Shown here piece after piece: positions 4,368-33,883 of a DNA stretch of 64,000 nt (position 1 is the stretch's first letter; the number at the start of each line of letters is the position of its first letter). Under the pieces are notes generated by a model. It saw only the letters and a program-made list of their open reading frames with translations. It made no database searches and had not been told where the DNA came from. Both the position numbers and the translations under genes were made by a program. The DNA comes from Candidatus Babeliales bacterium (lineage in GTDB: Bacteria; Babelota; Babeliae; Babelales; JANWKD01): positions 96,001 to 160,000 of the forward strand of contig OY969622.1 in NCBI GenBank assembly GCA_963701665.1, given 5' to 3'.

Positions 4368-4943
4368 TTATTTTGCAAATAATCCTTCAAATAGTATCTC
4401 ATTGAGAGGTTTGCGATCGTTGGGAAAATCAACATCCTGTAATTTTTTAGGAAGTTGTTCAACGTTACCATAGACACCAACGGCGACCATAGCTTCAACG
4501 GTGTATGTATCTGGAATCTTGAGCACTTGGGATGCTTTGTCGTAATTGAAGCCTTCCATACCATGCACAACAAGACCAAGTATTGAACCTTGTAATGCTA
4601 AGTTTTCCCACGCAGCTCCAGCATCAAACGAGTGAGTACGGGAAGGCCTGCCATCATAATCAAACACCTTATGGGAAACAATCACCATCAAAACAGCCGC
4701 GTTCTTTGCCCATGCTTGGTTTGCAGGTTCTAGCAAATCAAGAAATGTTTGCCAATAAGAAGAATTTCTTTTGGCATAGATAAAACGCCATGGTTGATTA
4801 TTGAAGGAGGATGGCGCCCACCGTGCCGCTTCAAAAAGCATCATTAATGTTTCGTTAGAAATTTCTTCACCCGTCATTGCACGGGATGACCAACGATTTA
4901 AAATGATGGGGCTAATTGGATAGTTCGATTTTCTTTGCTTCAT
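4368..4943 (-). CDS. Nitroreductase family protein
   Basis: RWSSRAM, EAARWAPSSFNNQPWRF and FDAGAAW.NL.LQ motifs; start likely MKQRK, overlapping the VKOR stop. Confidence 0.92.
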   Translation of the reverse strand: MKQRKSNYPISPIILNRWSSRAMTGEEISNETLMMLFEAARWAPSSFNNQPWRFIYAKRNSSYWQTFLDLLEPANQAWAKNAAVLMVIVSHKVFDYDGRPSRTHSFDAGAAWENLALQGSILGLVVHGMEGFNYDKASQVLKIPDTYTVEAMVAVGVYGNVEQLPKKLQDVDFPNDRKPLNEILFEGLFAK

Positions 4944-5338
4944 ATGATCCCATTTATTTTCATACATGTAACAAGCAATAATACATTAATTACATACATA
5001 GAAGTACACAAAATGCATAATGCTTTAATTTTGAAGTACAAAAGATACGCAAAATAACATGACATGAGGCAACCAATAATTACGGTGATTAATAAGAATG
5101 TTTGTTGATGCAATGCAGCAAAGACAAAGACTAAAACATAAAAAGCAAATGCCAGCCACGCATTTGAAATATAAAAAATTGATGCGTATTTACTTTTCAT
5201 TGGTTTTGTACAGGAAATAGTATCAGAGAGATCGCACACCGGTTTATACGATGGCGTTTTTTTTATTTTCTGTTCCAAAACATTGGTATATAAAGAAATG
5301 ATCATACCAAGAAGAGCTAAAACCATAATTATTATCAT
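4940..5338 (-). CDS. Vitamin K epoxide reductase (VKOR) family protein
   Basis: Loop cysteines CDLSDTISC, active-site CILC, four hydrophobic segments. Confidence 0.9.
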   Translation of the reverse strand: MIIIMVLALLGMIISLYTNVLEQKIKKTPSYKPVCDLSDTISCTKPMKSKYASIFYISNAWLAFAFYVLVFVFAALHQQTFLLITVIIGCLMSCYFAYLLYFKIKALCILCTSMYVINVLLLVTCMKINGII

Positions 5339-8894: not shown

Positions 8895-11396
8895 TTAGCT
8901 TTCAATGTTTTGGCCGATAGTTGTTGGCCCAGCAACGCCGAAACCGCCGAAATTAGGGAAATTAATTTGATCTGTACCATTATTTGTGGCAACACAGTTA
9001 ACCGGGAAAAGAAAAAAAGTGGGTGATGGAGCATTGAAACCAATATTATTAAGCGTTGCGTTACAATCCGTAAAACTATAATTTTGACCGCTTATTATAC
9101 CAAAACCAGTACCACCATTCTGGCTCGCACTACAACCAATAAAAGTCTGTGAATTACCTACAAGATCAAAGCCATCTGTAACATTATATAATGCCGAACT
9201 ATATTGACCAGTAAACTCACCATTTTGTATGCTAAAACCTACTTCATTATGAGATGCAATACAATTTTCACAGGCAGTTTTCGTACCTTGTACTAAAAAT
9301 CCAGTTCCATTTGAATTTGTTGCACTACAATTAGCTAATAAAGTATCAGTAACACCGGTAAATATCGCAAAGCTGCTGCTATCATTGATAACACTTCCAT
9401 TACATTGGTCTGCTACACAATTGTATAGGGATACATTATCAGCGTCCACTACGTATCCATACGCAAAATTACCAATCTCATCTGCTGTTTGCAAAATTTG
9501 AATTGCTTGACAATCAATGAAAATATTATCATTTGCAGTTGTTTCAAAGCCAACTGCATTGCCGGCATCGTCTCCCGTTGGTGATACAGATATATTAGAT
9601 GCCACACAATTTTTAAATAGATTATCGACCCCGCTAGAAATAAAACCTACTGCATTTGTTAATCTACTTGATAAGCCTAACGCTTGACAATTTTGAACTA
9701 CGGAGCCCATGCAGGCTAACTGAAATCCTGCAGTATTTGTCCCAGCACCATTTGATGCAGCTAAGCAAGAATCAAATAAACAGTTCTGACCTGCGTCTAC
9801 GCGGAAGCAAACAAAAGCATTGCCATCGCAATCTTGAACGTCACATGATATAAATCTAAAGGTTATTGCATCGGTTGCATAAATACCTGCAAGGGTCCCT
9901 CCTGTTATCATATTGCTAACGGATATATTAACAAGATCCATACCAAATTGTTGTCCACCTTCTGCATTTAAGTAGACACCATAAACACTAGCATCGGTAA
10001 TACTGACATTAGAAATTTCTGTATATAAACATCCTCCTGCTAATTCCATACCAAAGGAGCCTGTGTTTGCAATATATACATTTTTGATGGTTGAATCGAT
10101 TAAAAAGCTAAACAGCATACCTATGCCCGTTGTATTTGCTACCGTTACACCATCCATGAGCAAATAATTGTCCCCATCACTGAAGAAACCTTGCGCAACA
10201 GTATCAATATAAATATTGAAGAATCTATTACCATTACCTGTTGAACTTATTGCGGTCAAACCTGGCGATTCAGTGATACTTATATCTTCAATTGTTGAAT
10301 TCGTTGTGTTATTAAGAACAATCCCCACCGATGAATTTGTTATTGTGCCATTTTTTATGGTAGTCCCTACGATTCCTGATCCTACTGTAACACCACCAGT
10401 CGTAATCGTGTGAGCGTTCAGATCGAGAGTGACATCATTTGCAGTTATCACAAATGAACCGCTAACATCATTTGCAAGACAATAATAACCACTTTGTGTT
10501 ATGGTTACTGGAGCTGTGAGGGATGTTGCAAAACATGCGGTAATAGCATTGAGTTCGGTAAATACGAAAGACAAATCGATACTTGCAATCGCGCTAAACG
10601 TTCCATCAAACCCATCTGCTAAGATGGTCCATGTTTGTTGAAATTCTGATGTAATATTGTTACAGCATGCGTTAAGTGCGGTAAATGTCCCATCAAACCC
10701 GTCTGCTAAAATGGTCCATGTTTGTTGAAATTCGCTCGTGATATTTTGACAACACGCGTTGAGCGCGGTAAATGTCCCTTGAAAATTCTCCTCAATAACA
10801 ACTGTCAATGTATCAACGAGCTCAGTCAAAATAGATACTGTAGAAATAAACGTACTTACCGTTTCTATTAAGATTTCACTTGAAAATATTGAAATGGTTA
10901 ACAGAACATCATTAAGTATTGAAAACGTTGTTATAAAATTATTTTCAATCTGCTGGCAACACTGATTCAAATTCGTCAGTATTACATTCAATAAATTTCT
11001 GATAGATGAAAGGTCACAAGCTCCAGGCCCAACAATAAATGGCCGCTGTTCTTCTCGCGGCGCTTTCAACGTATCATCATTTGGCAATTCATTAACTAAT
11101 ACTTGATATCGCGCAAGTAATAAAGGATATGCTAGTATTAAATCTTGTAACGGTAATGAATTAGCATTATGTTCAAGTCTTTGGCAACATCTCATTAATG
11201 CTTCAACAGCAGATTCATGATGTATGTAATCATCAAGAGTCAAATTTTCACATAAACCTTTAATAAAAGTTTTAATCGTTTCATCGACGGTAATTTCATT
11301 CTGCAATTCACTACTCGTTGGATCTGGCATGTTAGCGGCAATCACTACGCTAAAACTAAACATGATCATCAAAAACAAACTCGATAAAGACTTCAT
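8895..11396 (-). CDS. Secreted protein: pro-domain + Cys-Cys repeat stalk + right-handed parallel beta-helix
   Basis: RBS aaggag before MKSLSSLF; GPGACDLS; CC repeats; ITQSGYYCLANDV...DVTLDLNAHTI followed by many NC.A..N..GF beta-helix coils. Confidence 0.8.
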   Translation of the reverse strand: MKSLSSLFLMIMFSFSVVIAANMPDPTSSELQNEITVDETIKTFIKGLCENLTLDDYIHHESAVEALMRCCQRLEHNANSLPLQDLILAYPLLLARYQVLVNELPNDDTLKAPREEQRPFIVGPGACDLSSIRNLLNVILTNLNQCCQQIENNFITTFSILNDVLLTISIFSSEILIETVSTFISTVSILTELVDTLTVVIEENFQGTFTALNACCQNITSEFQQTWTILADGFDGTFTALNACCNNITSEFQQTWTILADGFDGTFSAIASIDLSFVFTELNAITACFATSLTAPVTITQSGYYCLANDVSGSFVITANDVTLDLNAHTITTGGVTVGSGIVGTTIKNGTITNSSVGIVLNNTTNSTIEDISITESPGLTAISSTGNGNRFFNIYIDTVAQGFFSDGDNYLLMDGVTVANTTGIGMLFSFLIDSTIKNVYIANTGSFGMELAGGCLYTEISNVSITDASVYGVYLNAEGGQQFGMDLVNISVSNMITGGTLAGIYATDAITFRFISCDVQDCDGNAFVCFRVDAGQNCLFDSCLAASNGAGTNTAGFQLACMGSVVQNCQALGLSSRLTNAVGFISSGVDNLFKNCVASNISVSPTGDDAGNAVGFETTANDNIFIDCQAIQILQTADEIGNFAYGYVVDADNVSLYNCVADQCNGSVINDSSSFAIFTGVTDTLLANCSATNSNGTGFLVQGTKTACENCIASHNEVGFSIQNGEFTGQYSSALYNVTDGFDLVGNSQTFIGCSASQNGGTGFGIISGQNYSFTDCNATLNNIGFNAPSPTFFLFPVNCVATNNGTDQINFPNFGGFGVAGPTTIGQNIES
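10596..10783 (-). repeat. Intragenic 87-bp (29-aa) tandem repeat
   Basis: GTFTALNACC.NITSEFQQTWTILADGFD occurs twice; nucleotide differences are mostly synonymous. Confidence 0.85.
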
Positions 11397-11535: not shown

Positions 11536-11689
11536 ATCATGCCATTTCAAAAATCCAAAAATAAACCCAGAATTACGCAAAAAAGATCCAATACGGTGGG
11601 TTGTTGAAGGAACATTTTCTTGGATGAATCAATTCAGATGTGTTTTTATTCGTATTGTTTCCAGAAAAGTTTAGTTTGCAGACAAGCTC
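11536..11689 (+). mobile_element. IS5-family (IS1031/IS427-like) remnant: transposase C-terminus and one terminal inverted repeat
   Basis: Encodes RWVVEGTFSWMNQFRCVFIR, resembling the IS5 RWVVERTFSW..RFRRL motif; ends tttgcagacaagctc followed by ttaa. Confidence 0.75.
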
Positions 11690-11981
11690 TTAATTCTTGA
11701 TATCGCGCAAGTAATAAAGGATATGCTTGTATCAGATCTTGTAACGGTAATGAATTAGCATTATTTTCAATATGCTGGCAACATCTCTTTAATGCCTCAA
11801 CACCAGATTTATGATGTATGTAATCATCATGAGTTAAATTTTCACACAAGTCTTTAATAAAAGTTTTGATCGTTTCATCGACAGTAATTTCAGGTTCAGT
11901 AGTTGGATCTGGTAAGTTCCCGGCAATCACGGTGCTGAAACTAAACATTATCATCAAAAACAAACTCGATAAAGGCCTCAT
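11690..11981 (-). pseudogene. Truncated duplicate of the 5' end of the 8895..11396 gene
   Basis: Near-identical signal peptide and pro-domain; homology stops at ARYQEL, where the IS end (LRACLQT) begins. Confidence 0.85.
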
Positions 11982-12095: not shown

Positions 12096-12914
12096 TTACC
12101 AATTAAAATCTTTTTCATAGCCAAGATCTATAAGCAATTGCCCAGCAACTTTTTTAAAAGCAGCTTTATGTCTTTCTAAGAAATGTTCTTTCCATGAGCC
12201 AATTTTGCCTTCACGAAACGTCGTCGTTCCGCCAAATAAGACTGACGAGATTTTTTTTGCTTCTTCTCTCGTAATAACATGGCCAAGGAAACTTGCTATT
12301 GCAATAATCTCATGTATCTGTGTTTCTTCATCGCCCCCACCTTCTTTACCTACTAATTTTTCAAATGTCGTCGCGTATACATTAGGTTCAAATCGCCATG
12401 GTAAATAGAGGTTATAAAATGATGCTACATCTTTTACATGAATCCATGGATTTTGTGCAAGAAATATTGTTGACCATAGCATACTTCCATCTGTTATCAA
12501 TGCATCAATAAGCTCATCTAAACTCCATTCATGCTGAGGAGCCCTCTCTATAGTTTTTATCCAAAAAGCTGCCGAAACAATTTGATCGCGTGGATCTCTA
12601 TAAATAAAAACTTTTTTAATACGTACATCGTTCAATTTTTTTATATTTTTTTCAACATAAATCGCATGAGCTATAAGAATAAAAAGCGGACTCGTCATAA
12701 GTATTTTAACCGCTTGATCATCGATCAAAAAGAATCTCTTACGCGGAATAGCCAACTGTGCATAGCAAATTTCTGTCAGCATCTTTAATAATAAATTAGT
12801 GCCACATTTGGGGATAGTGATTGCTGTTACACGATACATATCCTCAGAGCATTGTCCACCTAGTAATCCAACGTAAAGTATAACGATTCCCAGTATATTT
12901 TTTCTCATATTCAT
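12096..12914 (-). CDS. PAPS-dependent sulfotransferase with hydrophobic N-terminus (copy A)
   Basis: 5'-PSB TIPKCGT, 3'-PB YRDPRDQIVS, C-terminal FREGKIGSWKEHF. Confidence 0.88.
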   Translation of the reverse strand: MNMRKNILGIVILYVGLLGGQCSEDMYRVTAITIPKCGTNLLLKMLTEICYAQLAIPRKRFFLIDDQAVKILMTSPLFILIAHAIYVEKNIKKLNDVRIKKVFIYRDPRDQIVSAAFWIKTIERAPQHEWSLDELIDALITDGSMLWSTIFLAQNPWIHVKDVASFYNLYLPWRFEPNVYATTFEKLVGKEGGGDEETQIHEIIAIASFLGHVITREEAKKISSVLFGGTTTFREGKIGSWKEHFLERHKAAFKKVAGQLLIDLGYEKDFNW

Positions 12915-13466: not shown

Positions 13467-14384
13467 CTAACAGGTGCCAACATATGAATCAAGTATACAT
13501 GCACTATTACCTGCAAGATTGTTCAACCTCGTACCATCTGAAACAATAGAGCCATTTGTAGCCATAAGACCAGTAATCAAAGTACTAACTTCAAAGCAAC
13601 AAATAGAAAATGTTACTCTAAGGGTGTTAAAACAACCGGAAATGTCAGTTAATAACGTATTAAGCTCATTTAAATCAGTAGTCAAATCGAAAAATATAGT
13701 ATCAAAATTATTAGTAAGAATGCTGTAGGTGGAGTTAAACCCAAAAGCAATTACCGAATACGTACCTTGAAAATCATTGGCTACTTCTTCACAACAGGTA
13801 GTAAGATCATTTTGATTATGAGCTAAAACAGTAAAAGTCCCAGCAAAATCGTTCGTAATAGTTTCACAACAGACATTCAATATATTTTCTATAGCAGCTA
13901 ATACGGTAAGCGTTCCACTAAAATCAATAGAATTATTTGCACAACATTGCGTAAGCAACGGATATATTTCTTGACTAAGATAATTATATACACCAGCAAG
14001 ATCACATTGCAAAGGGCCGAAAAGCACACCGGGACTATAACGGGATTCTTCTGGAATCATTTCTAATATATGCATTATGTCAGAGAATGCTTCTTGAAGA
14101 GTATTTTCATCACATTCAGTTTTATTTTGCGTCAACTGTTCATAGCATCTCAATAAGCTCTCAGGGAGGCATTCTTCCTTTCGCTGTGCTATCTTATTTT
14201 CAACTATCGTAATTATAAGAGATTTAAGGTAAGAATCATCGGCAAGAACAGTTTTTTTTGTGGCATTGTTATTCTGTTGCACTAGTATTGATGCGCTATC
14301 ATCAGAGGTACTTTCAGCATGATACAAGATACCAATAATAATTAAAAATAATAAAAACAATCTAAAATTATTTTTATTTTTCAT
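13467..14384 (-). CDS. Secreted Cys-Cys repeat protein (paralogue 2)
   Basis: Signal peptide, pro-domain LLRCYEQL, GPLQCDL, CC every 25 aa, terminal Cys. Confidence 0.85.
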   Translation of the reverse strand: MKNKNNFRLFLLFLIIIGILYHAESTSDDSASILVQQNNNATKKTVLADDSYLKSLIITIVENKIAQRKEECLPESLLRCYEQLTQNKTECDENTLQEAFSDIMHILEMIPEESRYSPGVLFGPLQCDLAGVYNYLSQEIYPLLTQCCANNSIDFSGTLTVLAAIENILNVCCETITNDFAGTFTVLAHNQNDLTTCCEEVANDFQGTYSVIAFGFNSTYSILTNNFDTIFFDLTTDLNELNTLLTDISGCFNTLRVTFSICCFEVSTLITGLMATNGSIVSDGTRLNNLAGNSACILDSYVGTC

Positions 14385-14421
14385 GGAATTACTCCTTTTT
14401 TAAGATGCACTACCATTTTGT

Positions 14422-14452
14422 ATACTAAAAAGAAGAATAAATAGAATGCAAG
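14422..14452 (-). promoter_or_regulatory. Putative sigma70-like promoter shared with 17600..17630
   Basis: TTGCAT-18 nt-TAGTAT on the minus strand, upstream of the RBS. Confidence 0.55.
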
Positions 14453-14494
14453 ACATAGTAGAAGATAGAAAAAAATCCTTTTGCGATAAATAGA

Positions 14495-14516
14495 AAGGGG
14501 CACTTGTGTGCCCCTT
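14495..14516. terminator. Hairpin terminator
   Basis: aaggggcac-ttgt-gtgcccctt. Confidence 0.7.
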
Positions 14517-14541
14517 AAAACATTCTACTTACCGTGTTAAT

Positions 14542-15447
14542 TTAACAAGTATTAAACTCGAAAGCGGTGTTTAAGGTACAGTTAGTAAGATCTTCATAGC
14601 TAGAAATAATGTTATTAATAGTCTCATATGTAGTAATAAAATTATTATTAGCCTCGTTTAATAAATTTATCAGATCGTCGCAGCAATTAGCTATTTGGAA
14701 TTCTAAACTGGTGCAACAGGCGTCAAAAGTACCATTCATCTCTCCTACAACAGTATCTAACTCATTTACTAAAGGTATAATAACCCCAAATCCTGCATCT
14801 AATACACTATAAGTACTGTTAAATGCATATGCTAATGCCGAAAATGTGCCGCTGAATTCTGTAAATATCTCTGCACAACATTGGGTAAGAGTAGAATCTA
14901 ATTCGTAGAGCGCGCTAAATGTACCATTGAAGTCATTAGCAATAGTTGCGCAACACTGCGTAAGCGTATTCTCAAATTCACTCAATACGGTAAAGGTGCC
15001 ATTGAAATCAGTAGTCTCGTTATTACAACAAACAACAAGTGCGTCATAGAACTTTCTTAATAATTGATAAATTCCGGACAAATTACATGTTGGTGGTCCT
15101 GCTAAAACATTGGGCACATGTTCGCGAGGGGATTTGTCTGTCATAGATTGTAATTTAATTATTAGTTCGGGTAGAACATTTTTTAATGTTTCTGGCGCAC
15201 AAGTATTGTTTTCATAAAGCTCTTGGTAGCATGCCAATAACTCAGGAGAAATATTTCTCTCAGAATCCTCTAAAGCGTGCTCAACAAAAAAGGTTACCAA
15301 TGTTTTTACTATTTCATGCTCAACTATTATAGTATAACACGGGTCCAAACTGCTTTTCGTATCTGCACCTTGTAAACTTACTACACAATTTTGCGTTAAT
15401 AATAGTATAAGAAAAAGTTTTAAAAAATTTCTCACACGCATAAACAT
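14542..15447 (-). CDS. Secreted Cys-Cys repeat protein (paralogue 3)
   Basis: Signal peptide, LLACYQEL, GPPTCNLS, LTQCC...DFNGTF repeats, terminal Cys. Confidence 0.85.
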   Translation of the reverse strand: MFMRVRNFLKLFLILLLTQNCVVSLQGADTKSSLDPCYTIIVEHEIVKTLVTFFVEHALEDSERNISPELLACYQELYENNTCAPETLKNVLPELIIKLQSMTDKSPREHVPNVLAGPPTCNLSGIYQLLRKFYDALVVCCNNETTDFNGTFTVLSEFENTLTQCCATIANDFNGTFSALYELDSTLTQCCAEIFTEFSGTFSALAYAFNSTYSVLDAGFGVIIPLVNELDTVVGEMNGTFDACCTSLEFQIANCCDDLINLLNEANNNFITTYETINNIISSYEDLTNCTLNTAFEFNTC

Positions 15448-15524
15448 GATACCCCTCTTTTTAGAAAATTGTCTCTTTCATAGTCTCAATCCCTTATGCT
15501 CAAAAATTATGTATGCCACATCTA

Positions 15525-16562
15525 TTAGCCACATGTATGGGCTGTTGGACAGAAAGGATCCGGTACAAGGTGTGTACTTGCTACGCAAAAGTTGTTACAT
15601 TCATGACCTAAGAATGATGCAACAATACTCACAGCGTTTGCTACCTGACTACCCAGCGCAAGCAAAGATTCAAACAATGATGCACAACAATTATCGATTT
15701 GAGTTTCAAAGTTAGTGCAATTTGATGTTAGTGTGGTTAGAACATCATTCAACACTATTGTTATAGCATCGAGCAGTGTAACTGTCCCATTAAAATCTGC
15801 CGTAATTATTGTTTCAGTGCTATTAAATCCATAGTTTAAAGCACTATATGTGCCGCTAAGATCATAGAATTCTACCGCGCAACAATTTGTTAATGTAGTC
15901 TCAAATTCCGCTAAGGCAGAAAATGTACCGTTAAAATCATTAGTAATATTCTCACAGCATATTGTTAAAGTATTTTGAATATAGGCTAAGTCAGAAAAAA
16001 TCATGCCAAAATCTATCGTGTTATTATTACAGCATTGCGTCAGTAAGCTTTCTATGGTCATAAGCAGGTCAATAACTATGGAAGTATTACATAACAATGG
16101 CCCAACGATGGGATGTATTTTTGGATGCAATACCTTTGTATTCGTATCTGCCAAAACATCCAGACTTACTTTTATCACATTACGTAGATCTTCTATTAAA
16201 AAATCGTTTTTATTATTTGATATCTGCTCATAGCATTGCAAGAATCCGTGGGGAAGAGCATTTGTCAAACCTTGCTCTAGAGCATTTTCAACAATAGATG
16301 TTATATAGGATTTGAAAATAGGGTCTTCAACTTTTACATAGATTACATCAGAATTAATTGTTTCCAAAAATTGTATATTTAGTTCATCACCGAGCTTAGA
16401 ATATTCGGCCATGAAATTATCTTTATATGCTTCATCAAATTCCTTAGAGGCTTCTACGAGGAATTCACGACCATCATTTTGCATCATGCCTTGTATTGGC
16501 CACGGATAATGTTGCAGTATTAAAATTGTAAAAAAGAGATTTATACACTTTCCATATTCCAT
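15525..16562 (-). CDS. Secreted Cys-Cys repeat protein (paralogue 4)
   Basis: Signal peptide, FLQCYEQI, GPLLCNTS, CC repeats, Cys-rich tail. Confidence 0.85.
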   Translation of the reverse strand: MEYGKCINLFFTILILQHYPWPIQGMMQNDGREFLVEASKEFDEAYKDNFMAEYSKLGDELNIQFLETINSDVIYVKVEDPIFKSYITSIVENALEQGLTNALPHGFLQCYEQISNNKNDFLIEDLRNVIKVSLDVLADTNTKVLHPKIHPIVGPLLCNTSIVIDLLMTIESLLTQCCNNNTIDFGMIFSDLAYIQNTLTICCENITNDFNGTFSALAEFETTLTNCCAVEFYDLSGTYSALNYGFNSTETIITADFNGTVTLLDAITIVLNDVLTTLTSNCTNFETQIDNCCASLFESLLALGSQVANAVSIVASFLGHECNNFCVASTHLVPDPFCPTAHTCG

Positions 16563-16620
16563 CTAATTTTACTCCTTTTTTCCCTATTTTTACTTGCATC
16601 ATAAAAACAATTTTATCAAT

Positions 16621-17565
16621 CTAGGGTGTACCCCCACAAATTACGCAAGATATGTCGAAGTTTCCACAAACTATGCAACTCGTTGCCGCTGCAAGTTCTT
16701 GGGCATAATCTGTATTCTCCATCATAGTAATTGATTCACTTAAGATAGCACTTGCACTCGATATTAATTCATTACAACAATTAGTAAGCTGGCTTTCAAG
16801 GCTACCACAGCAAGCAATTATTTGGTCAAGAACGGTATTTGCTAGACTTATGTCTGTATCTAACAAAACTTCTACCGTATTAAAATCTGAAGCTAAACGA
16901 GGGAACAATGTATTGATTCCATTGGCAATAACCGTAAATGTACCGATAAAAGCATTATTAAAATCTATACAACATGTAGAAAGCGTATTTTGTATAGCGT
17001 TTATCACGGTAAAAGTACCCTCAAAGTCTGCTGTTGCATTTGCACAACATTGCGTCAAGGTGCCTTGCAAATCATTGAGCTCCGCAAAAATTGCATCAAA
17101 CGAGATGGTAGCCGCATTACAACACTGCGTAAGAAGTCTATAGAGATGGTTAAGCAGACCAATAATCTCAGAAAGATCACATCCTGCAGGCCCTGCAAGA
17201 GGACGTTGCGTTTGGGGGCGAGATGCTTTTACCATTCGATTTAATCCAGCCGTTAAATCAGGAAAAACATCAATAAGATCTTTTACTAAAAACTCTTTCT
17301 CATCTTTACAGACTTGTTCATAGCAGTTTAGCAAACCATTTGAAAGTTGCTCCTGCGCATTATCTTGTAATGCATTTTCAACTAAACTAATCACATAGGA
17401 TTTAAAATGAGGATTATCAACAACGATGCTCTCCTGCACAATGTCACCATGTTGCAGCGCAGCTATTGCAAGATTATCGAATATTATTTCACTTTTCACA
17501 CAGAAAGAAATATGTGGTATTATAAAAAATATAGATAAAAACCATGATTTATTCTTTAATCTCAT
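16621..17565 (-). CDS. Secreted Cys-Cys repeat protein (paralogue 5)
   Basis: Signal peptide, LLNCYEQV, GPAGCDLS, CC repeats, tail CIVC...CVIC. Confidence 0.85.
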   Translation of the reverse strand: MRLKNKSWFLSIFFIIPHISFCVKSEIIFDNLAIAALQHGDIVQESIVVDNPHFKSYVISLVENALQDNAQEQLSNGLLNCYEQVCKDEKEFLVKDLIDVFPDLTAGLNRMVKASRPQTQRPLAGPAGCDLSEIIGLLNHLYRLLTQCCNAATISFDAIFAELNDLQGTLTQCCANATADFEGTFTVINAIQNTLSTCCIDFNNAFIGTFTVIANGINTLFPRLASDFNTVEVLLDTDISLANTVLDQIIACCGSLESQLTNCCNELISSASAILSESITMMENTDYAQELAAATSCIVCGNFDISCVICGGTP

Positions 17566-17672: not shown

Positions 17673-18491
17673 TTACCAACCGAAGTCTTTTTCATAACCA
17701 AGATCTATAAGCAGTTGCCCTGCAACTTCTTTAAAAGCAATTTTATGTCTTTCTAAGAAATGTTCTTTCCATGAACCAATCTTCCCTTCACGAAATGTCG
17801 ATGTACCCCCAAATAATTCGTCGGCAATTTTTTTTGCTTGTTCCCAAGTAAGAGGTTTACCTAAGTGATTTCCTATTGCGATAATTTCTTTTATTTGTTC
17901 ATCCTCACTACCACCTCCTTGTTTTCCGATTAATTTTTCAAACGTTGTGGTATATACATCTGGCTCAAATCGCCATGGTAAATATATATTATAAAATGAA
18001 GCTATATCCGTTATTTGAAGCCAGGGATCGTCAGACAAAAATACTTTGGACCATAAGAACCCGGTGTTCATTATCAATGAATCAATAAGAACATCTAAAT
18101 CCCATGTTTTTTCCTCTATCCTTTCTATAGTCTTTAGCCAAAAAGCTGCAGAGACCACTTGATCACGAGGATCTCGAAATATAAAAACTTTTTTTATTCG
18201 CTCATTACTCATTTTTTTAATATTATCATTAACATAAATTGCATGTCCTACGAGCAACCACCTTGGATCCATCATCAGCATTTTTATGGCATTGGCATCA
18301 ATTAAAAAAAATCTTCTACGAGGAATAGCTACCTTCGCATGAGACATCATTAAAAGCATTTTCGCTAATAGCATGGTACCACATTTAGGGATAGTTATTT
18401 CTGCGACACGATATAAATCAGGATATTGCTGAGCGCATAATCCAACATTAATTATGAATAATGCTATTTTTACTACGTTTTTTATACTCAT
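17673..18491 (-). CDS. PAPS-dependent sulfotransferase (copy B)
   Basis: TIPKCGT, FRDPRDQVVS and FREGKIGSWKEHF motifs; hydrophobic N-terminus. Confidence 0.88.
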   Translation of the reverse strand: MSIKNVVKIALFIINVGLCAQQYPDLYRVAEITIPKCGTMLLAKMLLMMSHAKVAIPRRRFFLIDANAIKMLMMDPRWLLVGHAIYVNDNIKKMSNERIKKVFIFRDPRDQVVSAAFWLKTIERIEEKTWDLDVLIDSLIMNTGFLWSKVFLSDDPWLQITDIASFYNIYLPWRFEPDVYTTTFEKLIGKQGGGSEDEQIKEIIAIGNHLGKPLTWEQAKKIADELFGGTSTFREGKIGSWKEHFLERHKIAFKEVAGQLLIDLGYEKDFGW

Positions 18492-18611
18492 GCCTTCTTA
18501 CCCTTCATTGTAGCTACATATTCTTTTTTAATTTTAGTTTTATGAAAAAAAACGTAGATGAAGCAAGAAAAAAGCTCTAATTTCATGAAGGTCGATGATA
18601 AAGCTTATTCA

Positions 18612-19424
18612 TTACCAGTTAAAATCCTTTTCGTAACCGAGATCTATAAGTAGTTGCCCTGCAACCGCTTTAAAAGCAATTTTATGTCTTTCTAAGAAAT
18701 GTTCTTTCCATGATCCAATCTTTCCTTCACGAAATGTCAATGTACCCCCAAATAATTTGTCGGCGATTTTTTTTGCTTCTTCCCAGGTAAGGGATTTACC
18801 TAGGTGATTTGCTATTGCAATAATTTCTTTTATTTGTTCATCCTCGCTACCGCCTCCTTGTTTTCCGACTAACTTTTCAAATGTTGTGGTATATACATCC
18901 GGTTCAAATCGCCATGGTAAATATATGGTATAAAATGAAGTTATATCAGTTATTTGAAGCCATGGATCATCTGAGCAAAGTACTTCAGACCATAAGGGCC
19001 CAGTATTCATGATCAGTAGATCAATAAGCACATCTAAATCCCATGTGCTTTCTGGCATCCTATCTATAGTTTTTATCCAAAAAGCTGCAGAGACCACTTG
19101 ATCACGCGGATCTCGAATTATAAAAACTTTTTTTATTTGTTCGTTACTTATTTTTTTAATATTATCATCAACATAGATTGCATGTGCTATGAGCAACCAC
19201 ACTTTACTTTCCATAAACATTTGCATGGCATCATCATCAATTAAAAAAAAACTTCTACGAGGAATAGGTAATTTTGCATGAGTCATCATTAAAAGCATTT
19301 TCAGTAGCATGTTGGAACCACATTTAGGAATAGATATTCCTACAACACGATATAAATCACCGTTCGCACATAATCCAAAATGAATTATGAATAATGCTAT
19401 TTTTACTATGTTTTTTATACTCAT
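18612..19424 (-). CDS. PAPS-dependent sulfotransferase (copy C)
   Basis: SIPKCGS, IRDPRDQVVS and FREGKIGSWKEHF motifs; close paralogue of copy B. Confidence 0.88.
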   Translation of the reverse strand: MSIKNIVKIALFIIHFGLCANGDLYRVVGISIPKCGSNMLLKMLLMMTHAKLPIPRRSFFLIDDDAMQMFMESKVWLLIAHAIYVDDNIKKISNEQIKKVFIIRDPRDQVVSAAFWIKTIDRMPESTWDLDVLIDLLIMNTGPLWSEVLCSDDPWLQITDITSFYTIYLPWRFEPDVYTTTFEKLVGKQGGGSEDEQIKEIIAIANHLGKSLTWEEAKKIADKLFGGTLTFREGKIGSWKEHFLERHKIAFKAVAGQLLIDLGYEKDFNW

Positions 19425-19645: not shown

Positions 19646-20203
19646 ATGAAGAAAAAATGGTCTAATTGTTTTAAACAAATTTTTTCGATGGTATTGCTAT
19701 TTGGTCTTATTTCAACTATAGGCGCTCAGCCATCAACTACGACGGTGAATTGGCACTGGTTAAGTGACGAATCGTGCGATAATACAAATAGTGGTATAAC
19801 ATCTGGTGTTGTCGATGCTAATATTGATATTATTGGTCATAATTCACTTTTTGGTATTGTTAGTGTTAAGGCATTAACATCCGATATTTTAGTTACGGTA
19901 ACTAATGGTGATGCTACTATTACTGGATCAGCGAACCGATGTGATGGCGGGCCAACTTATCCAGCGCGAGTATTTTTTTATGCTGCAGAAGATTGTAACA
20001 TAACATTTCAATTAGCAAATAGCCTTGATTTTTACGGTACGAGCAGCGGGAGTAGGCTTCTTGATTTTTTAGTCACCGTTTCTGGCCCTGGAACTTTTAA
20101 TTTCTTGATGGAAAACGGTAGTAATCTTAATTTTAATCCCCGAACAGAAGAAAGTGGTGGTGTATCATTCTTCTTGGCGTATGGTAGTTTTTCGGGAATA
20201 TGA
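19646..20203 (+). CDS. Secreted beta-rich protein, probably truncated
   Basis: RBS, signal peptide, Ser/Thr/Gly/Asn-rich beta-strand character; ends just before an IS-like end. Confidence 0.6.
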   Translation: MKKKWSNCFKQIFSMVLLFGLISTIGAQPSTTTVNWHWLSDESCDNTNSGITSGVVDANIDIIGHNSLFGIVSVKALTSDILVTVTNGDATITGSANRCDGGPTYPARVFFYAAEDCNITFQLANSLDFYGTSSGSRLLDFLVTVSGPGTFNFLMENGSNLNFNPRTEESGGVSFFLAYGSFSGI

Positions 20204-26357: not shown

Positions 26358-27332
26358 CTAAGATATACATTCATTCTGCTTAGATATACTATGGCTTTGG
26401 TAATTTTGTATAGACATTTTATACCACTCAAGCGTTCTTTGCATACCTTCTTCCAGAGAGATTTTCGCCTTCCATCCAAGCGCGTGAATTTTATCAACAT
26501 TCAGCAATTTGCGCGGTGTACCATCAGGTTTTGTGGTATCAAACACAAGTTCACCCCGAAATCCAACGATGTCTTTAATAAGATTAGCAAGATCTGCGAT
26601 GGAACAATCGTACCCAACGCCAACGTTAATTGGTTCTGATGCATTGTACTGCTGCATTAAAAAAAGAGAAGCATCGGCAAGATCATCAACGTATAAAAAT
26701 TCACGAAACGCGCGACCAGTGCCCCAAATTGGCACAGAACGCGCGTTTGTACTATAGGCATTATAAATTTTTGCAATCAGCGCGGGTACCACATGCGAGG
26801 TTTCAAGATTAAAATTATCTCCCGGGCCATATAAATTGGTTGGCATGCATGAAATAAAGTTAGTGCCGTGTTGTCTGTTATATGATTGGCAAAGATTAAT
26901 GCCAGCAATTTTTGCAATCGCATACGGTTCATTTGTTTTTTCAAGTGTGCCCGTTAATAAATATTCTTCACTAATAGGCTGAGGGCACAGGCGCGGGTAA
27001 ATGCAGGAAGAGCCCAAGAATAATAATTTTTTTACGCCGTGTTGATAGGCCGCGTGAATAACATTCGCTGCTATCATGATGTTGTCGTAAATAAAATCTG
27101 CAGGAAAATCATTATTTGCTTTTATACCGCCAACGCGCGCAGCAGCAAGGAAAACGTACGCCGGTTTTTCTTGCGCAAAAAACTCGTTAGTCGCGCGTTG
27201 ATCGCACAAGTCGAGCGTTTGCACTGTTCTGTATATCAAATTTTTGTAGCCTTGCGCGTGCAATGCTCGCATCAATGCTGAACCTACCAATCCGGTGTGG
27301 CCGGCGACATAAATTTTTTCATGTTTATTCAT
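26358..27332 (-). CDS. fcl: GDP-L-fucose synthase
   Basis: [31 protein letters not shown] and MPTNLYGP motifs. Confidence 0.97.
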
Positions 27333-28438
27333 AAACTATCCACGGAATATGGTGATGTGCCACGAGGCTGTTGAAACAAATTTTCTTGGTTTTCTTGAGG
27401 CGGCTTAACAAGCTTACAATCATGATCAACCATAAGCGTCACTAATCCATCAAAATCCATTTTGGGATACCAGCCCAATGTACGTTGTGCTTTGCGTGAA
27501 TCACCAATGAGAAGATCAACTTCTGTTGGTCTGAAATAATGTTCATCAATACGCACTAATGATTTTTTTGTTTTTGTATCGATACCGCACTCGTCTATGC
27601 CAGTTCCTTGCCATATAAGATTGATATCAACATGAGCAAATGCTTTTTCTATGAACTCGCGCACGGAATGTGTTTTGCCGGTGGCAATAACAAAATCTTC
27701 AGGAACATTTTGTTGCAGCATGAGCCACATCGCTTCGACATAATCTTTTGCATATCCCCAATCACGTTTTGCATTGAGATTGCCAACATATAAACATTCC
27801 TGAAGTCCATATTTTATGCGCGCAACAGCTCGAGTAACTTTTCGTGTCAAAAATGTTTCACCACGCAAGGGCGATTCATGATTAAAAAGAATTCCGTTGC
27901 AGGCATACATAGAATACGCTTCACGATAATTTACGGTAATCCAATAGGCGTACAATTTAGCAGCTGCATACGGTGATCGAGGGCAAAAGGGTGTTGTTTC
28001 TGATTGAGGGACTTCAAAACTGTTACCATATAATTCACTCGTTGATGCTTGATAAAACCTCGTTTTTGAAGTCAAACCGAGCAGCCGTATCGCTTCTAAG
28101 ATGCGTAAGGTACCTAATCCATCAGCATTGGCGGTATACTCAGGCGTTTCAAAAGAAACATGCACATGACTTTGTGCCGCTAAATTATACACTTCATCCG
28201 GTTGAATTTCCTGAATAAGTCTGATTATATTTGTCGAATCAGTAACATCACCATAATGTAAAATAAAATTTGCTGTGTCATACTCATGCGCATCTTGATA
28301 AATATGATCAATACGCGATGTGTTAAATGAAGAGGAGCGGCGTTTTAGCCCATGAACTTGATAACCTTTTTGCAGCAAAAATTCCGATAAATAGGCGCCA
28401 TCTTGGCCTGTAACACCCGTTATTAAAGCTTTCTTCAT
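27329..28438 (-). CDS. gmd: GDP-mannose 4,6-dehydratase
   Basis: [34 protein letters not shown] and LFNHESP motifs. Confidence 0.98.
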
Positions 28439-28455
28439 ACTCTACTTCTTTCTAT

Positions 28456-29496
28456 TTATAGATAACGTTCCAGGCCCTTTTTCTTGAGTTCTGCAACAAT
28501 TTGTTTTACGTTCTCAGCTTCAGAACGTTTCATGATAAGAAGTGCATCTGGCGTATCAACAATACAAAGATCATCAACACCCAAGAGTGCAACTAATTTT
28601 TTCGAATCTGCCGTTATTAGATTATTATGCGCTTTAATCTCAATACGGTTGTGCACATCGTTGCGCGAATATTTTTGCTGTAATGATAAAAACGTTTCTA
28701 AATTGCCGACATCTGACCATGAAAAATCAACGGGCATAACGACAATGTCTTTCGTTTTTTCCATGACAGCATAATCTATCGAAATCGACGGCAATGCTTC
28801 GTATAGTGCTTGATTAGGTGAACGCACATACTGTTGTAATGATGTGTACATATCAGGAACGTGTTTTTGGAATTGCTGTAAAAATACCGATATTTTTCCA
28901 CAAAATATGCCTATATTCCATAACATGGACGGCATAGAGGCATATTTCTCTGCTATTTCACGCGATGGTTTTTCATGAAATTTTATGATCGAGCCCACCT
29001 GATCATGCGCTTCTTTGAACTCGATATAGCCATATCCTGTTGCCGGAAATGTTGGTTTAACCCCAAAAAGCACGATTTTTTCATGGTGTTTACCATACTC
29101 AAAGGCATGCGCAATGCTTTGAACAAATTTTTGTGTATCAGGAATATAAGGATCAGCGGGCAAAAATATCACGAGTGCTTCTGGATCCTGACGCGCTAAT
29201 AATAAGCAACTAAGTAAAATCGCCGGTGCAGTATTACGCGAGGCAGGCTCGATTAACAAACTATTAATATTATTTTTGCAATGCTGTTCGATTATATTTT
29301 TTTGTTGTTCCGTTGTTACAACAAATCGATCTTTTTCAGGAACAATCGTAGCAAGACGATTCAAGGTATCTTCTAATAAAGAATGATCATTAACAAACGG
29401 CAATATTTGTTTTGGACGTTTCTCACGACTTAACGGCCATAAGCGCTCGCCTTTTCCCCCTGCTAAAATAACGGCATAATGTGTCATTGAACGCAC
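28456..29496 (-). CDS. manC: Mannose-1-phosphate guanylyltransferase
   Basis: LAGG.G.RLWPLSR...PKQ, EP..RNTAPA, TGYGYI, FHEKP and WSDVG motifs. Confidence 0.93.
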   Translation of the reverse strand: MRSMTHYAVILAGGKGERLWPLSREKRPKQILPFVNDHSLLEDTLNRLATIVPEKDRFVVTTEQQKNIIEQHCKNNINSLLIEPASRNTAPAILLSCLLLARQDPEALVIFLPADPYIPDTQKFVQSIAHAFEYGKHHEKIVLFGVKPTFPATGYGYIEFKEAHDQVGSIIKFHEKPSREIAEKYASMPSMLWNIGIFCGKISVFLQQFQKHVPDMYTSLQQYVRSPNQALYEALPSISIDYAVMEKTKDIVVMPVDFSWSDVGNLETFLSLQQKYSRNDVHNRIEIKAHNNLITADSKKLVALLGVDDLCIVDTPDALLIMKRSEAENVKQIVAELKKKGLERYL

Positions 29497-29512
29497 TCAA
29501 CTAAAGTAATTA

Positions 29513-30244
29513 TTAATTTTTACATTTTGTATTGTGTGCACAAAACAAACGATCAGTCAAAAGAATAAAATATTGTTTTGCAGTTTCCCGCATAATTTTT
29601 GTGGATAACTTTGATTCACCTCTATCGCGATTACGAGCTTCAATGGGCACTTCATAGACCGTTGCGCCACGTTGTAAGAATCGGTAGAGTGATTCGAGAT
29701 TGAAAGAAAAACCTTCAGACTTCAGATTTTTGATTGATGCTTCATTCAAGAGTGCAACATTATACAAACGGAAGGCCCCCATGCAATCATAGGGCATACC
29801 AAGTCCATATTTGATCATATTGCGCCAGAAATTAGTGAAAAATAATCGTATTTTTCCCCAACCATACATGGTACCTTTTCCAGCCCAGCGTGATCCGATA
29901 ACAATGTCATATTTATCTTTTTTATCAAGCATTAAGGGGATATATTTCGGATCATGCGTACCGTCTGCATCCATAGTAATCAAATAATTATAATGATTTT
30001 TATGAGCATAGCGAAAAGCTTCTAAGTGTGCGGTGCCTAATCCCAATTTGGCCGGACGATGTATAACGCGCACCGTGTGATCGTGCTCTGCCAATTCATC
30101 AAGTATTTTACCAGTATTATCCGGTGAATTATCATCACAGAACAAAATATCAATGGGTAGACCAAGGTTTTTCAGTTGGATATATAAACGGTCAACGTTG
30201 GCCCGTTCATTATAGGTCGGAATAAAAACTAAAATCTTATTCAT
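29513..30244 (-). CDS. GT2 polyprenol-phosphate mannose synthase-like glycosyltransferase
   Basis: PTYNE, DDNSPD.TG, KLGLGTA, MDAD..H, GSR and R..GESKL motifs (Dpm1/Ppm1-like). Confidence 0.88.
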   Translation of the reverse strand: MNKILVFIPTYNERANVDRLYIQLKNLGLPIDILFCDDNSPDNTGKILDELAEHDHTVRVIHRPAKLGLGTAHLEAFRYAHKNHYNYLITMDADGTHDPKYIPLMLDKKDKYDIVIGSRWAGKGTMYGWGKIRLFFTNFWRNMIKYGLGMPYDCMGAFRLYNVALLNEASIKNLKSEGFSFNLESLYRFLQRGATVYEVPIEARNRDRGESKLSTKIMRETAKQYFILLTDRLFCAHNTKCKN

Positions 30245-30336
30245 TAATATATTTCTTTCAGAGTTTATTAAAAAGTGCGGGTGCACAAATAAATAGATTA
30301 ACAGTTCTTATCTTTTTTCCTAGTTTTATACGTAGT

Positions 30337-32499: not shown

Positions 32500-33854
32500 T
32501 ATTGATACTCCTTGTCAAACAATGTCGTTGATGGCGAGCTAAAATAGGCAGGTTCAAAAGGCGTCATGGTCTCAACACTATTTGCAGGCCAGAAGAGCAC
32601 TTCTTGCGCAGATGAATCAGCGTGCGGTTTATATAATAACCCACAAAAATCGAGAACTTTTTTATGCGTGCTCATATGGCGGTCAATATTTTTAAATTGA
32701 CGGTGTGGCACTAAACAAACAACTATATCCGCACGATCTATACCTTCTTGCAATGATACAACCGCATTATTGAATAACGATTCAAGGGCTGTTTGTGCAA
32801 CATTAGGCTCTGTTACTAAAAGCTGGCAGTCTGCATACTTTTGCAAAGTACGTGCAATCATTAAAGCAGGGGATTCGCGCATATCATCAACATCAGCTTT
32901 GTAGGTTAATCCTAAGATAAGTACGGTAGGATTTCCTTCATGGTTCTTCTGCCACTCCTGAACCCACGATCGTGTTAACGAGATAACTTGTAAGGGCTTT
33001 GCGTCGTTAACGGCACGCGCGGTGTGCAATAAATGTGATTGCTGTGGGAAGGTCTCAATAAGAAACCAAGGATCAACGGCAATGCAATGACCGCCAACGC
33101 CACACGAGGGATTAAGAATATTCACACGCGGATGTTTGTTGGCGAGTGCAATAACTTCAAATGGATCTAACCCTGTTGCGTACGCCATGGCAGCGACTTG
33201 ATTAGCAAATGCAATGGCAACATCGCGCGAACTATTTTCAACGAGCTTGACCATTTCAGCAGTTGTTGCATTCGTTAAATACAATTGTCCCTTAACAAAT
33301 TGCTTATAAAAAACTTTAGCGCGATCGACAGAGTCATGGTTAATCCCGCCAATAATGCGCGCGTTATATATGAGTTCATAAAAAATTTTTCCTGGTAATA
33401 CGCGTTCAGGGCAATGCGCAACAAAAAAATCATGCCCGGCTCGCAAACCAGTCTTTTTTTCTAGAACGCGTGCACATTGATCAGTGACGCCAACCGGCAC
33501 GGTGGATTCGATAATCACAACATCATTACGTTTGAGCAGCGGAGCAAGTTGATCAATGGCCATCATGACGTAGGAAATATCAGCTTTCTTATCTTCTTTG
33601 AACGGCGTTGGCACTGCAACTATAAAACAATCTGCCTGTTCTAAAACTGTTGTGGCGCGAAAAATGCCTGATCTAATTAATGGTTGTAGCCGCTCAATAC
33701 TTTCTGGTTCTTGAATGACAGGATCATAGTTATTTATTCGATCGACACGCTGCGCATCGATATCAAACCCCACAACTTCAAAACCATGCTCTGCAGCAAC
33801 AATTGCGGTTGGCAATCCAATATAACCAAGCCCCATTATACAAATCTTTTTCAT
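32499..33854 (-). CDS. wecC: UDP-N-acetyl-D-mannosamine dehydrogenase
   Basis: GLGYIGLPTA, ESTVPVG, HCPERVLPG, GVGGHCIAVDPWF and YKADVDD.RESP motifs. Confidence 0.9.
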   Translation of the reverse strand: MKKICIMGLGYIGLPTAIVAAEHGFEVVGFDIDAQRVDRINNYDPVIQEPESIERLQPLIRSGIFRATTVLEQADCFIVAVPTPFKEDKKADISYVMMAIDQLAPLLKRNDVVIIESTVPVGVTDQCARVLEKKTGLRAGHDFFVAHCPERVLPGKIFYELIYNARIIGGINHDSVDRAKVFYKQFVKGQLYLTNATTAEMVKLVENSSRDVAIAFANQVAAMAYATGLDPFEVIALANKHPRVNILNPSCGVGGHCIAVDPWFLIETFPQQSHLLHTARAVNDAKPLQVISLTRSWVQEWQKNHEGNPTVLILGLTYKADVDDMRESPALMIARTLQKYADCQLLVTEPNVAQTALESLFNNAVVSLQEGIDRADIVVCLVPHRQFKNIDRHMSTHKKVLDFCGLLYKPHADSSAQEVLFWPANSVETMTPFEPAYFSSPSTTLFDKEYQ

Positions 33855-33883
33855 GGGAGATTCCTTTTTTTGCAATCTTTTTT

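What the first reader, a model, noticed from the sequence alone, without database searches (positions are those of the whole stretch)
13467..17565. Abrupt lysine desert after GPxxC, with a basic candidate cleavage site just upstream
Seen: after GPxxC the ~180-190-aa regions of paralogues 2, 4 and 5 contain no Lys and paralogue 3 has one, although the pro-domains and the rest of this AT-rich genome are Lys-rich. Just upstream lie KAPR, KSPR, KASR or ESR. Inferred: a cleaved chaperone-like pro-domain releases an acidic mature chain resistant to trypsin-like proteases or host ubiquitination. N-terminal GPxxC and C-terminal Cys could allow head-to-tail polymerisation.
Basis: partly seen in the sequence, partly recalled or inferred. 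Interest (0 to 1): 0.7.

Follow-up and report, generated by a model that had tools for sequence, protein, structure and literature searches.

The report
Protease-tagged, cysteine-stapled surface rods
Four neighbouring genes of an uncultured Babeliales bacterium, a group whose cultured members parasitise protists, encode exported proteins with long stretches almost free of lysine and arginine; they are predicted to form short three-stranded, disulfide-stapled surface rods that are likely trimmed at a conserved K/R-A-P-R-P tag, possibly by a clostripain-type protease found across the group.

Summary
The lysine desert is real: 1 Lys in 730 residues after GPxxC against 7.4% genome-wide. But Arg and His are depleted too, the pro-domains are not Lys-rich, and the desert is shared by all 11 family members and by unrelated surface fibres, including ones with no pro-domain. 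The conserved landmark is [K/R]-A-P-R-P (83 of 116 homologues; 3.9% in shuffles), not GPxxC (23 of 116). The same tag heads an unrelated C1q-tipped fibre. The mature chain is predicted to be a parallel in-register trimer with every Cys-Cys pair in the core (score 0.59, best control 0.00), which argues against head-to-tail polymers. A signal-peptide clostripain (C11) with intact catalytic motifs occurs in 257 of 261 genomes of the phylum and is the best candidate processing enzyme; cleavage is inferred, not shown. The desert fits avoidance of basic-residue proteases, or an anionic coat, better than ubiquitin avoidance. This scan had already noted the long family members elsewhere (e1-9842162, e1-2078495); its index returned nothing on the tag-protease link. 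New variant of protease-matured trimeric fibres; interest 0.55.

The parts
13467..14384 (-). Short headless paralogue, 305 aa; no [KR][AS]xR motif (ESRY at 113-116); GPLQC 123-127; Lys-free from residue 89
14542..15447 (-). Short headless paralogue, 301 aa; the one modelled as monomer and trimer
15139..15315 (-). Three-helix pro-domain (residues 45-103), acidic, one nearly invariant Cys (C73)
   Evidence: pLDDT about 90-95 over residues 51-100; 84.7 alone; alignments; no clear fold match
15124..15135 (-). KSPR, the [K/R]-A/S-x-R(-P) candidate processing tag (residues 105-108)
   Evidence: sequence; family consensus K/R-A-P-R-P-D-A; in low-confidence loop 107-123
15085..15099 (-). GPPTC; its Cys (C121) is the first residue of the predicted trimer interface
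   Evidence: C121 invariant in 21 aligned sequences
14560..15087 (-). Predicted parallel trimeric coiled coil, residues 121-296 (about 26 nm, inferred from 1.5 A per residue), five Cys-Cys pairs in the core, 7+7+11 and 11-residue spacing
15525..16562 (-). Short headless paralogue, 345 aa; KVLHPK instead of the motif; no Lys or Arg after GPLLC
16621..17565 (-). Short headless paralogue, 314 aa; KASRP at 113-117; CxxC...CxxC tail
17218..17229 (-). KASR tag of the 314-aa paralogue
8895..11396 (-). 833-aa family member: same signal peptide, pro-domain, KAPR (11055-11066), Cys-Cys stalk, then a right-handed beta-helix head that is also Lys/Arg-poor (4 K, 4 R in 538 aa)
   Evidence: (PF13229 E 3.7e-13)
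11646..11981 (-). Truncated duplicate of the 833-aa gene (signal peptide plus pro-domain), followed by a sulfotransferase 3' remnant
   Evidence: 85% nucleotide identity over 440 nt
12096..12914 (-). Sulfotransferase with apparent signal peptide inside the cluster
   Evidence: PF00685 E 1.4e-7; a homologue flanks the four-gene array in G110
17673..19424 (-). Two further sulfotransferase paralogues upstream of the array

Best explanation
The four genes are short, headless members of a Babeliales family of exported proteins whose Lys/Arg-poor part is predicted to form a parallel, disulfide-stapled three-chain rod, and whose acidic N-terminal pro-domain is likely cut off at the K/R-A-P-R-P tag, most likely by the bacterium's own clostripain-family (C11) protease. 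Shown: signal peptide-like N-termini, tag conservation, Lys+Arg+His depletion, Cys-Cys periodicity, presence of C11 and of a VKOR gene. Predicted: trimer and register. Inferred: Sec export, inter-chain disulfide rings, cleavage (after the first basic residue, giving an A-P-R N-terminus, or after the invariant Arg, before Pro), and surface display through a secretin or the linked putative outer-membrane barrel. The desert is best read as a property of this organism's surface fibres in general, selected so that long exposed chains lack sites for Arg/Lys-directed proteases (own C11, host food-vacuole enzymes); it is not a consequence of the cleavage.
For: Trimer: score 0.59, best of 3 controls 0.00; that mark was reached by 20 of 30 solved homo-pairs and 1 of 23 single chains (counts hold only roughly for three copies and my own alignment); runs agree in at least 65% of contacts, pLDDT at least 70; interface 121-296, all ten Cys-Cys residues and C121 among interface or best-contact residues, 1 K and 1 R among 106 non-interface residues. 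Tag: 83 of 116 N-terminally complete homologues (33 of 149 dropped as lacking an N-terminus), 90 of 116 with [KR]xxRP variants, 3.9% in shuffles; kept in homologues that lack the helical pro-domain; only 2 [KR][AS]xRP in 45,570 residues of other signal-peptide proteins; RAPR also in 6 of 20 N-terminally complete proteins sharing the N-terminus of an unrelated C1q-tipped 3216-aa fibre, and in 2 of them APR follows the apparent signal peptide directly. Protease: PF03415 in 257 of 261 genomes; own copy has a signal peptide, acidic pro-region, H208, D295, C297; His-Gly in 24 of 25 and DAC in 24 of 25 parsed orthologues, 5 of 30 loci not parsed. C11 fragipain cuts Arg-Ala sites in pro-proteins (PMC8406203, passages); C11 enzymes mature after Lys or Arg and were co-crystallised with VLTK (10.1101/522870, passages); clostripain cuts an Arg-Pro bond (PMC13709457, passages). 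Desert: K+R under 5.5% in 51 of 56 mature regions from 16 genomes, against 11.3% proteome-wide here.
Against: No cleavage or expression data. 2 of the 4 paralogues lack the tag and 33 of 116 homologues lack the strict pattern. C11 is near-universal while the family was found in 30 of 261 genomes, so co-occurrence carries no information, and the C11 gene is not next to the cluster. Periplasmic proteins that share a compartment with C11 are not depleted (BamA N-terminal part 9.0% K). Lys falls more (0.02x) than Arg (0.17x) in these four, and putative outer-membrane barrels are Lys-poor (3.1%) with normal Arg (4.1%), which a Lys-specific pressure such as ubiquitin would also give. Whether the site residue (K or R) predicts which residue is lost was weak per protein (p 0.045, non-independent) and absent per genome (rho -0.16, p 0.55). 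Only three copies were modelled; dimers or tetramers were not tested. Coiled coils may score well by likeness to solved ones.
Confidence: 0.55

Rival explanations
1. Same trimeric rods, but the tag is cut by a host enzyme (proprotein-convertase-like R-x-x-R or a lysosomal protease) after uptake, unmasking the rod inside the host.
For: [KR]-x-x-R resembles the minimal convertase pattern (recalled); C. destructans passes through the food vacuole (PMC6561590, passages); BFT can be activated by host proteases without fragipain (PMC8406203).
Against: Pro follows the Arg in 57 of 83 motifs, which blocks trypsin-like and convertase cleavage (recalled); the tag is constant across distant genomes.
Confidence: 0.15
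2. The tag is an export or anchoring signal, not a cut site: it is read by the outer-membrane machinery, and the pro-domain stays on as the base of the rod.
For: Shared by unrelated fibres that have no obvious anchor; conserved gene order 1400-aa Lys-poor protein, putative barrel, family gene, metG in G258, G259, G205 and G121 (barrel, family, metG in G211), and signal-peptide-plus-pro-domain genes at that place in G000 and G110; two secretins.
Against: Composition changes at the tag, as expected if the upstream part is discarded; pro-region varies from 3 to about 170 aa; 14 of 20 C1q-type fibre N-termini lack the tag. The barrel label is my inference, no Pfam hit.
Confidence: 0.15
3. The desert avoids host ubiquitination of a bacterium that replicates in the host cytoplasm.
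For: Lys is the most depleted residue; putative barrels lose Lys but not Arg in six genomes; C. destructans replicates in host cytoplasm; precedent in toxins is indirect (PMC13696103, passages).
Against: Arg and His also fall; G121, G211, G258, G259 keep 4.2-5.6% Lys with at most 0.8% Arg; 434 other signal-peptide proteins average 8.0% Lys and 6 ankyrin-like ones 7.9%.
Confidence: 0.2
4. The desert serves charge or structure: an anionic, Asn/Thr/Ser-rich, perhaps sulfated non-stick coat, or simply the residue preference of these repeats.
For: All three cationic residues fall; non-interface positions are N, T, S, A, G, D, E; sulfotransferases flank the array here and in G110; 25 Lys/Arg-poor secreted non-family proteins listed, most without the tag.
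Against: Three unrelated folds (coiled coil, beta-helix, C1q-tipped repeats) converge on it, so not one repeat's bias; the genome is 37% GC, which favours Lys. No non-Babelota control was obtained.
Confidence: 0.25
5. First reader's head-to-tail polymer: N-terminal GPxxC Cys links to C-terminal Cys of the next unit, giving a long filament.
For: C121 has no evident partner inside a three-fold rod; the 301-aa chain has an odd number (13) of mature Cys; an exposed A-P-R-P end resembles the fibrin G-P-R-P knob (recalled).
Against: GPxxC in 23 of 116 homologues; long members end in beta-helix heads yet often keep the cap Cys; C290/C301-type pairs are conserved as a pair in the short members; pro-domain C73 is another possible partner (covariation test inconclusive).
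Confidence: 0.1

Closest known systems
Bdellovibrio MAT fibres (PMC10769870; passages read)
   Same: Paralogous signal-peptide trimeric surface fibres with variable tips, some proteolytically matured
   Different: MAT processing is C-terminal S74 self-cleavage and all have a beta-rich domain after the signal peptide; here an N-terminal helical pro-domain, a basic tag and an alpha-helical Cys-Cys stalk
Fragipain (C11) activation of Bacteroides pro-proteins BFT and Fab1 (PMC8406203; passages)
   Same: Secreted precursor, N-terminal pro-domain removed at Arg-Ala by an unlinked, conserved C11 protease
   Different: Substrates are toxins, not structural rods; here cleavage is untested
Type V pili of Porphyromonas, Mfa1/FimA (PMC5954841; passages)
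   Same: Arg-directed clan CD protease removes an N-terminal leader from a surface filament subunit
   Different: Lipoprotein, beta-sandwich pilins that polymerise by strand exchange; here all-helical trimers, and no gingipain found (silent control)
Trimeric autotransporter adhesins (recalled; also named in e1-2078495)
   Same: Parallel trimeric coiled-coil stalks with mixed heptad/hendecad repeats and modular heads
   Different: No C-terminal YadA-type anchor; disulfide-stapled core; N-terminal pro-domain
Lysine deserts of toxins and ubiquitin-system proteins (PMC13696103; passages)
   Same: Lys-free runs over 50% of the chain, in an AT-rich genome so not GC bias
   Different: Arg is not used in place of Lys; extracellular structural proteins

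Membership tests
Lysine desert (descriptive) | Continuous Lys-free region of at least 50% of the chain | tested here: met
   217/305, 169/301, 197/345, 201/314 aa; threshold from PMC13696103 Fig. 4 legend
Ubiquitin-avoidance desert | Lys-specific loss with Arg retained | tested here: not met
   Arg 0.17x, His 0.27x in the four; mixed across 16 genomes
Ubiquitin-avoidance desert | Added Lys causes ubiquitin- or proteasome-dependent loss | not testable with these tools
   needs a host system
C11 (clostripain) substrate | Exposed Arg/Lys site followed by a small residue between pro-domain and mature part | tested here: met
   83 of 116 homologues, 2 of these 4 paralogues; disordered loop
C11 (clostripain) substrate | Exported C11 with His/Cys dyad and neighbouring Asp in the same organism | tested here: met
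   role of the Asp in binding P1 is recalled
C11 (clostripain) substrate | Cleavage by the enzyme | not testable with these tools
   no biochemical data
Trimeric autotransporter adhesin | Parallel trimeric coiled-coil stalk | tested here: met
   prediction only: 0.59 against control 0.00
Trimeric autotransporter adhesin | C-terminal YadA-type membrane anchor | tested here: not met
   no such Pfam hit; chains end in helix plus Cys tail or beta-helix
Type V pilin | Beta-sandwich domains with donor strand | tested here: not met
   all-helical model
Type V pilin | Lipoprotein signal peptide | tested here: inconclusive
   by eye no canonical lipobox; no predictor run
Bdellovibrio MAT | Conserved beta-rich ~130-aa domain after the signal peptide | tested here: not met
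   three-helix domain instead
Bdellovibrio MAT | C-terminal S74 chaperone/protease (13 of 21 members) | tested here: not met
   no S74 Pfam hit in the members scanned
PglB-type N-glycoprotein | STT3/PglB oligosaccharyltransferase in the genome | tested here: not met
   PF02516 absent from G000 (93.6% complete; control rang in 4 of 14) although long members carry 39-47 N-x-S/T in the stalk

The most novel reading that the evidence does not exclude
Babelota use a core clostripain as a dedicated surface maturase: unrelated trimeric fibres carry a portable K/R-A-P-R-P tag, cleavage exposes an A-P-R-P knob that docks the rod on a linked outer-membrane barrel or on other rods, and the whole surface proteome has evolved free of basic residues around that private cut site. 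This would be an undescribed export-and-anchoring route for a bacterial phylum.
Probability: 0.25. Interest if true: 0.8.

Novelty: new variant of a known kind. Interest (0 to 1): 0.55.

Why it matters
Babelota are little-studied parasites of protists, and the two genome papers I searched gave no hit for 'adhesin' (PMC6561590, PMC4776705; passages). The finding supplies a concrete, testable enzyme-substrate pair (one phylum-wide C11 and a five-residue tag on two unrelated fibre classes), a candidate outer-membrane partner, and a warning that trypsin proteomics will largely miss these proteins. It also offers a natural test of whether a bacterial lysine desert answers ubiquitin or proteases. 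Short, acidic, disulfide-stapled trimer rods of tunable length could be useful scaffolds.

Tried and rejected
GPxxC as the functional boundary: rejected (23 of 116). N-glycosylation by PglB: no STT3. Gingipain: none found but the control was silent. Other proteases seen: one HtrA-like and one subtilisin-like; not excluded, Arg/Lys preference not evident. DsbA-type PF13462 not found. Site residue versus depleted residue: no genome-level link. C73-C121 covariation: inconclusive, noisy pattern matching. General enrichment of TR[SAG]-type sites in signal-peptide proteins: slight at most (31 in 45,570 against 20 in 42,840 residues) and none for the broader patterns. Fold searches: no match for the full model in PDB or for the pro-domain (best Z 5.1, rmsd 3.6, 70 aligned; no viral hit); ESM Atlas blank; absence shows no novelty. 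Pfam Baculo_PEP_C hits are below cut-off and treated as compositional. L144 pro-region versus the family: hhalign probability 52%, unresolved. Non-Babelota beta-helix control: no match in plasmids or phages, so composition of such folds in free-living AT-rich bacteria was not measured. Literature searches listed no paper on this family or on C11 in Dependentiae; I saw listings and abstract starts only, except the passages cited; supplements were not read and may list these genes.
Full report
Setting. The window is G000:C1:96001-160000 of a 1.34-Mb single-contig genome, 37% GC. The nearest records returned for a family member are titled 'Candidatus Babeliales bacterium', so this is Babelota/Dependentiae; the cultured member C. 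destructans is a parasite that passes through the food vacuole and replicates in the host cytoplasm (PMC6561590, passages).

The observation. The four ORFs exist as described. After GPxxC they contain 0, 1, 0 and 0 Lys in 178-187 residues, P about 1e-5 to 6e-7 each against 7.4%; their Lys-free runs rank within the top 18 of 1178 ORFs. The pro-domains are not Lys-rich (6.0%, 0.81x) and are acidic. Arg (0.17x) and His (0.27x) fall too. Only two of the four have a [KR][AS]xR site; KAPR belongs to the neighbouring 833-aa gene.

The family. The genome has 11 full-length members: these four, the 833-aa beta-helix gene, four of about 1550 aa and two of about 850 aa; they are 11 of the 18 longest Lys-free runs. 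Architecture: signal peptide, about 60-aa three-helix domain, tag, short linker with a cap Cys, Cys-Cys coiled coil, optional head. Relatives were found in 30 of 261 phylum genomes and 263 library proteins, 150 listed. The long members had been noted earlier by this scan (e1-9842162; e1-2078495); I confirmed the architecture of the former from sequence.

The tag. Of 149 library homologues, 33 were dropped for lacking an N-terminus. Of 116, 83 carry [KR][AS]xR (consensus K/R-A-P-R-P-D-A), 90 if [KR]xxRP variants count, against 3.9% in shuffles; GPxxC is in 23. The tag persists where the helical domain is replaced by a short acidic peptide. It is rare elsewhere: 2 [KR][AS]xRP in 45,570 residues of 434 other signal-peptide proteins, one being an unrelated 3216-aa C1q-tipped fibre. 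Among 25 loci for that fibre's N-terminus, 3 gave no hit and 2 were open; of 20 complete, 6 carry RAPR, 2 begin with APR straight after the apparent signal peptide, and 14 lack the tag while remaining Lys-poor. So the tag is portable between folds, and the desert does not depend on it.

Structure. AlphaFold2 gives a confident helical domain at 45-103, a disordered loop at 107-123 holding the tag's end, and a long helix. Three copies of residues 36-301 scored 0.59 against a best control of 0.00; the mark was reached by 20 of 30 solved pairs and 1 of 23 single chains, counts that hold only roughly for this job; contact agreement at least 65%, pLDDT at least 70. The interface runs in register from C121 to F296, includes all five Cys-Cys pairs, and lists no pro-domain residue; 106 non-interface positions hold one Lys and one Arg. 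Inter-chain disulfide rings and a length near 26 nm are inferred. Other oligomers were not modelled. No known fold matched.

The enzyme. The genome encodes one C11 clostripain with signal peptide, acidic pro-region, H208 and D295/C297 aligning to solved C11 enzymes. The family is in 257 of 261 genomes; an even draw gave 61 of 61; motifs are intact in 24 of 25 parsed orthologues, 5 of 30 loci not parsed. Fragipain removes pro-domains at Arg-Ala, C11 enzymes accept Lys or Arg, and clostripain can cut Arg-Pro, so either basic residue of the tag could be P1. Against: universality makes co-occurrence uninformative, the gene is unlinked, and one HtrA-like and one subtilisin-like protease also exist.

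Why no lysine. In 56 mature regions from 16 genomes, Lys is under 2% in 39, Arg under 2% in 47, K+R under 5.5% in 51; four genomes keep 4.2-5.6% Lys with at most 0.8% Arg, one keeps 3.3% Arg with 1.0% Lys. In 78 library homologues median Lys is 1.2% and Arg 1.4%; their first helix after the cap still has about 4% of each. Beta-helix heads are equally poor. Other signal-peptide proteins average 8.0% Lys, only 7 of 434 under 2.5%, ankyrin-like ones 7.9%; BamA's N-terminal part has 9.0%, putative barrels 3.1% Lys with 4.1% Arg (2.5-4.4% Lys in five more genomes). The pressure therefore acts on the cell's outer surface and on basic residues together. That fits protease avoidance or an anionic coat; ubiquitin avoidance stays possible because Lys falls furthest and barrels lose only Lys. 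A link between site residue and lost residue did not hold per genome. I obtained no control from free-living bacteria.

Export. No anchor domain is present. Two secretins exist, as reported for the phylum (PMC4776705, passage). A conserved order of large Lys-poor protein, putative barrel, family gene and metG occurs in G258, G259, G205 and G121 (barrel, family, metG in G211); G000 and G110 hold only a signal-peptide-plus-pro-domain gene there. This is a lead, not a test.

Verdict. Real, partly as described. Works like fragipain-matured pro-proteins and MAT or autotransporter fibres, but fails membership in MAT, autotransporters and type V pili. Searches listed no paper on the family or on C11 in this phylum; supplements were not read. 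Best explanation 0.55 (trimeric rod about 0.8, cleavage about 0.7, own C11 given cleavage about 0.65; the rival scores address different sub-questions and do not sum to one). Interest 0.55; the most novel reading, a phylum-wide tag-and-maturase surface pathway, 0.25 probable and 0.8 if true.

Noticed in passing
window 11646-11981 (-): Truncated duplicate of the 833-aa gene's 5' end followed by a sulfotransferase 3' remnant; relic of a tandem duplication.
   Followed up: yes
window 12096-12914, 17673-18491, 18612-19424 (-): Three Sulfotransfer_1 genes with apparent signal peptides around the array; linkage also in G110 (L035). Exported PAPS-type sulfotransferases would be unusual.
   Followed up: partly
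window 4940-5338 (-): VKOR family gene (E 7e-27), a possible disulfide-forming partner.
   Followed up: partly
window 19646-20203 (+): 185-aa ORF 45% identical to the N-terminus of the 1448-aa Lys-poor protein at G000:C1:934233-938579; probably a truncated copy.
   Followed up: partly
G000:C1:931909-938579; L188, L189, L064-L066, L074: Conserved order 1400-aa Lys-poor protein, putative outer-membrane barrel (no Pfam hit), family gene, metG; in G000 and G110 the family gene is only signal peptide plus pro-domain.
   Followed up: partly
G000:C1:1298867-1308517: 3216-aa repeat fibre with C1q tip and RAPRP tag; N-terminal relatives in 20 of 261 genomes.
   Followed up: yes
G000:C1:39712-41268: C11 clostripain as a near-universal gene of this small-genome phylum (257 of 261), often in several copies.
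   Followed up: partly
window 26358-35062 (-): Cluster that reads by eye as GDP-fucose and UDP-ManNAc/ManNAcA surface-glycan synthesis genes; labels recalled, not scanned.
   Followed up: no
L064, L065, L074, P0003, P0084: A second short class of the family ends in a conserved 'I[IQ][EQ]WLK.IY'-like helix instead of a Cys tail.
   Followed up: no
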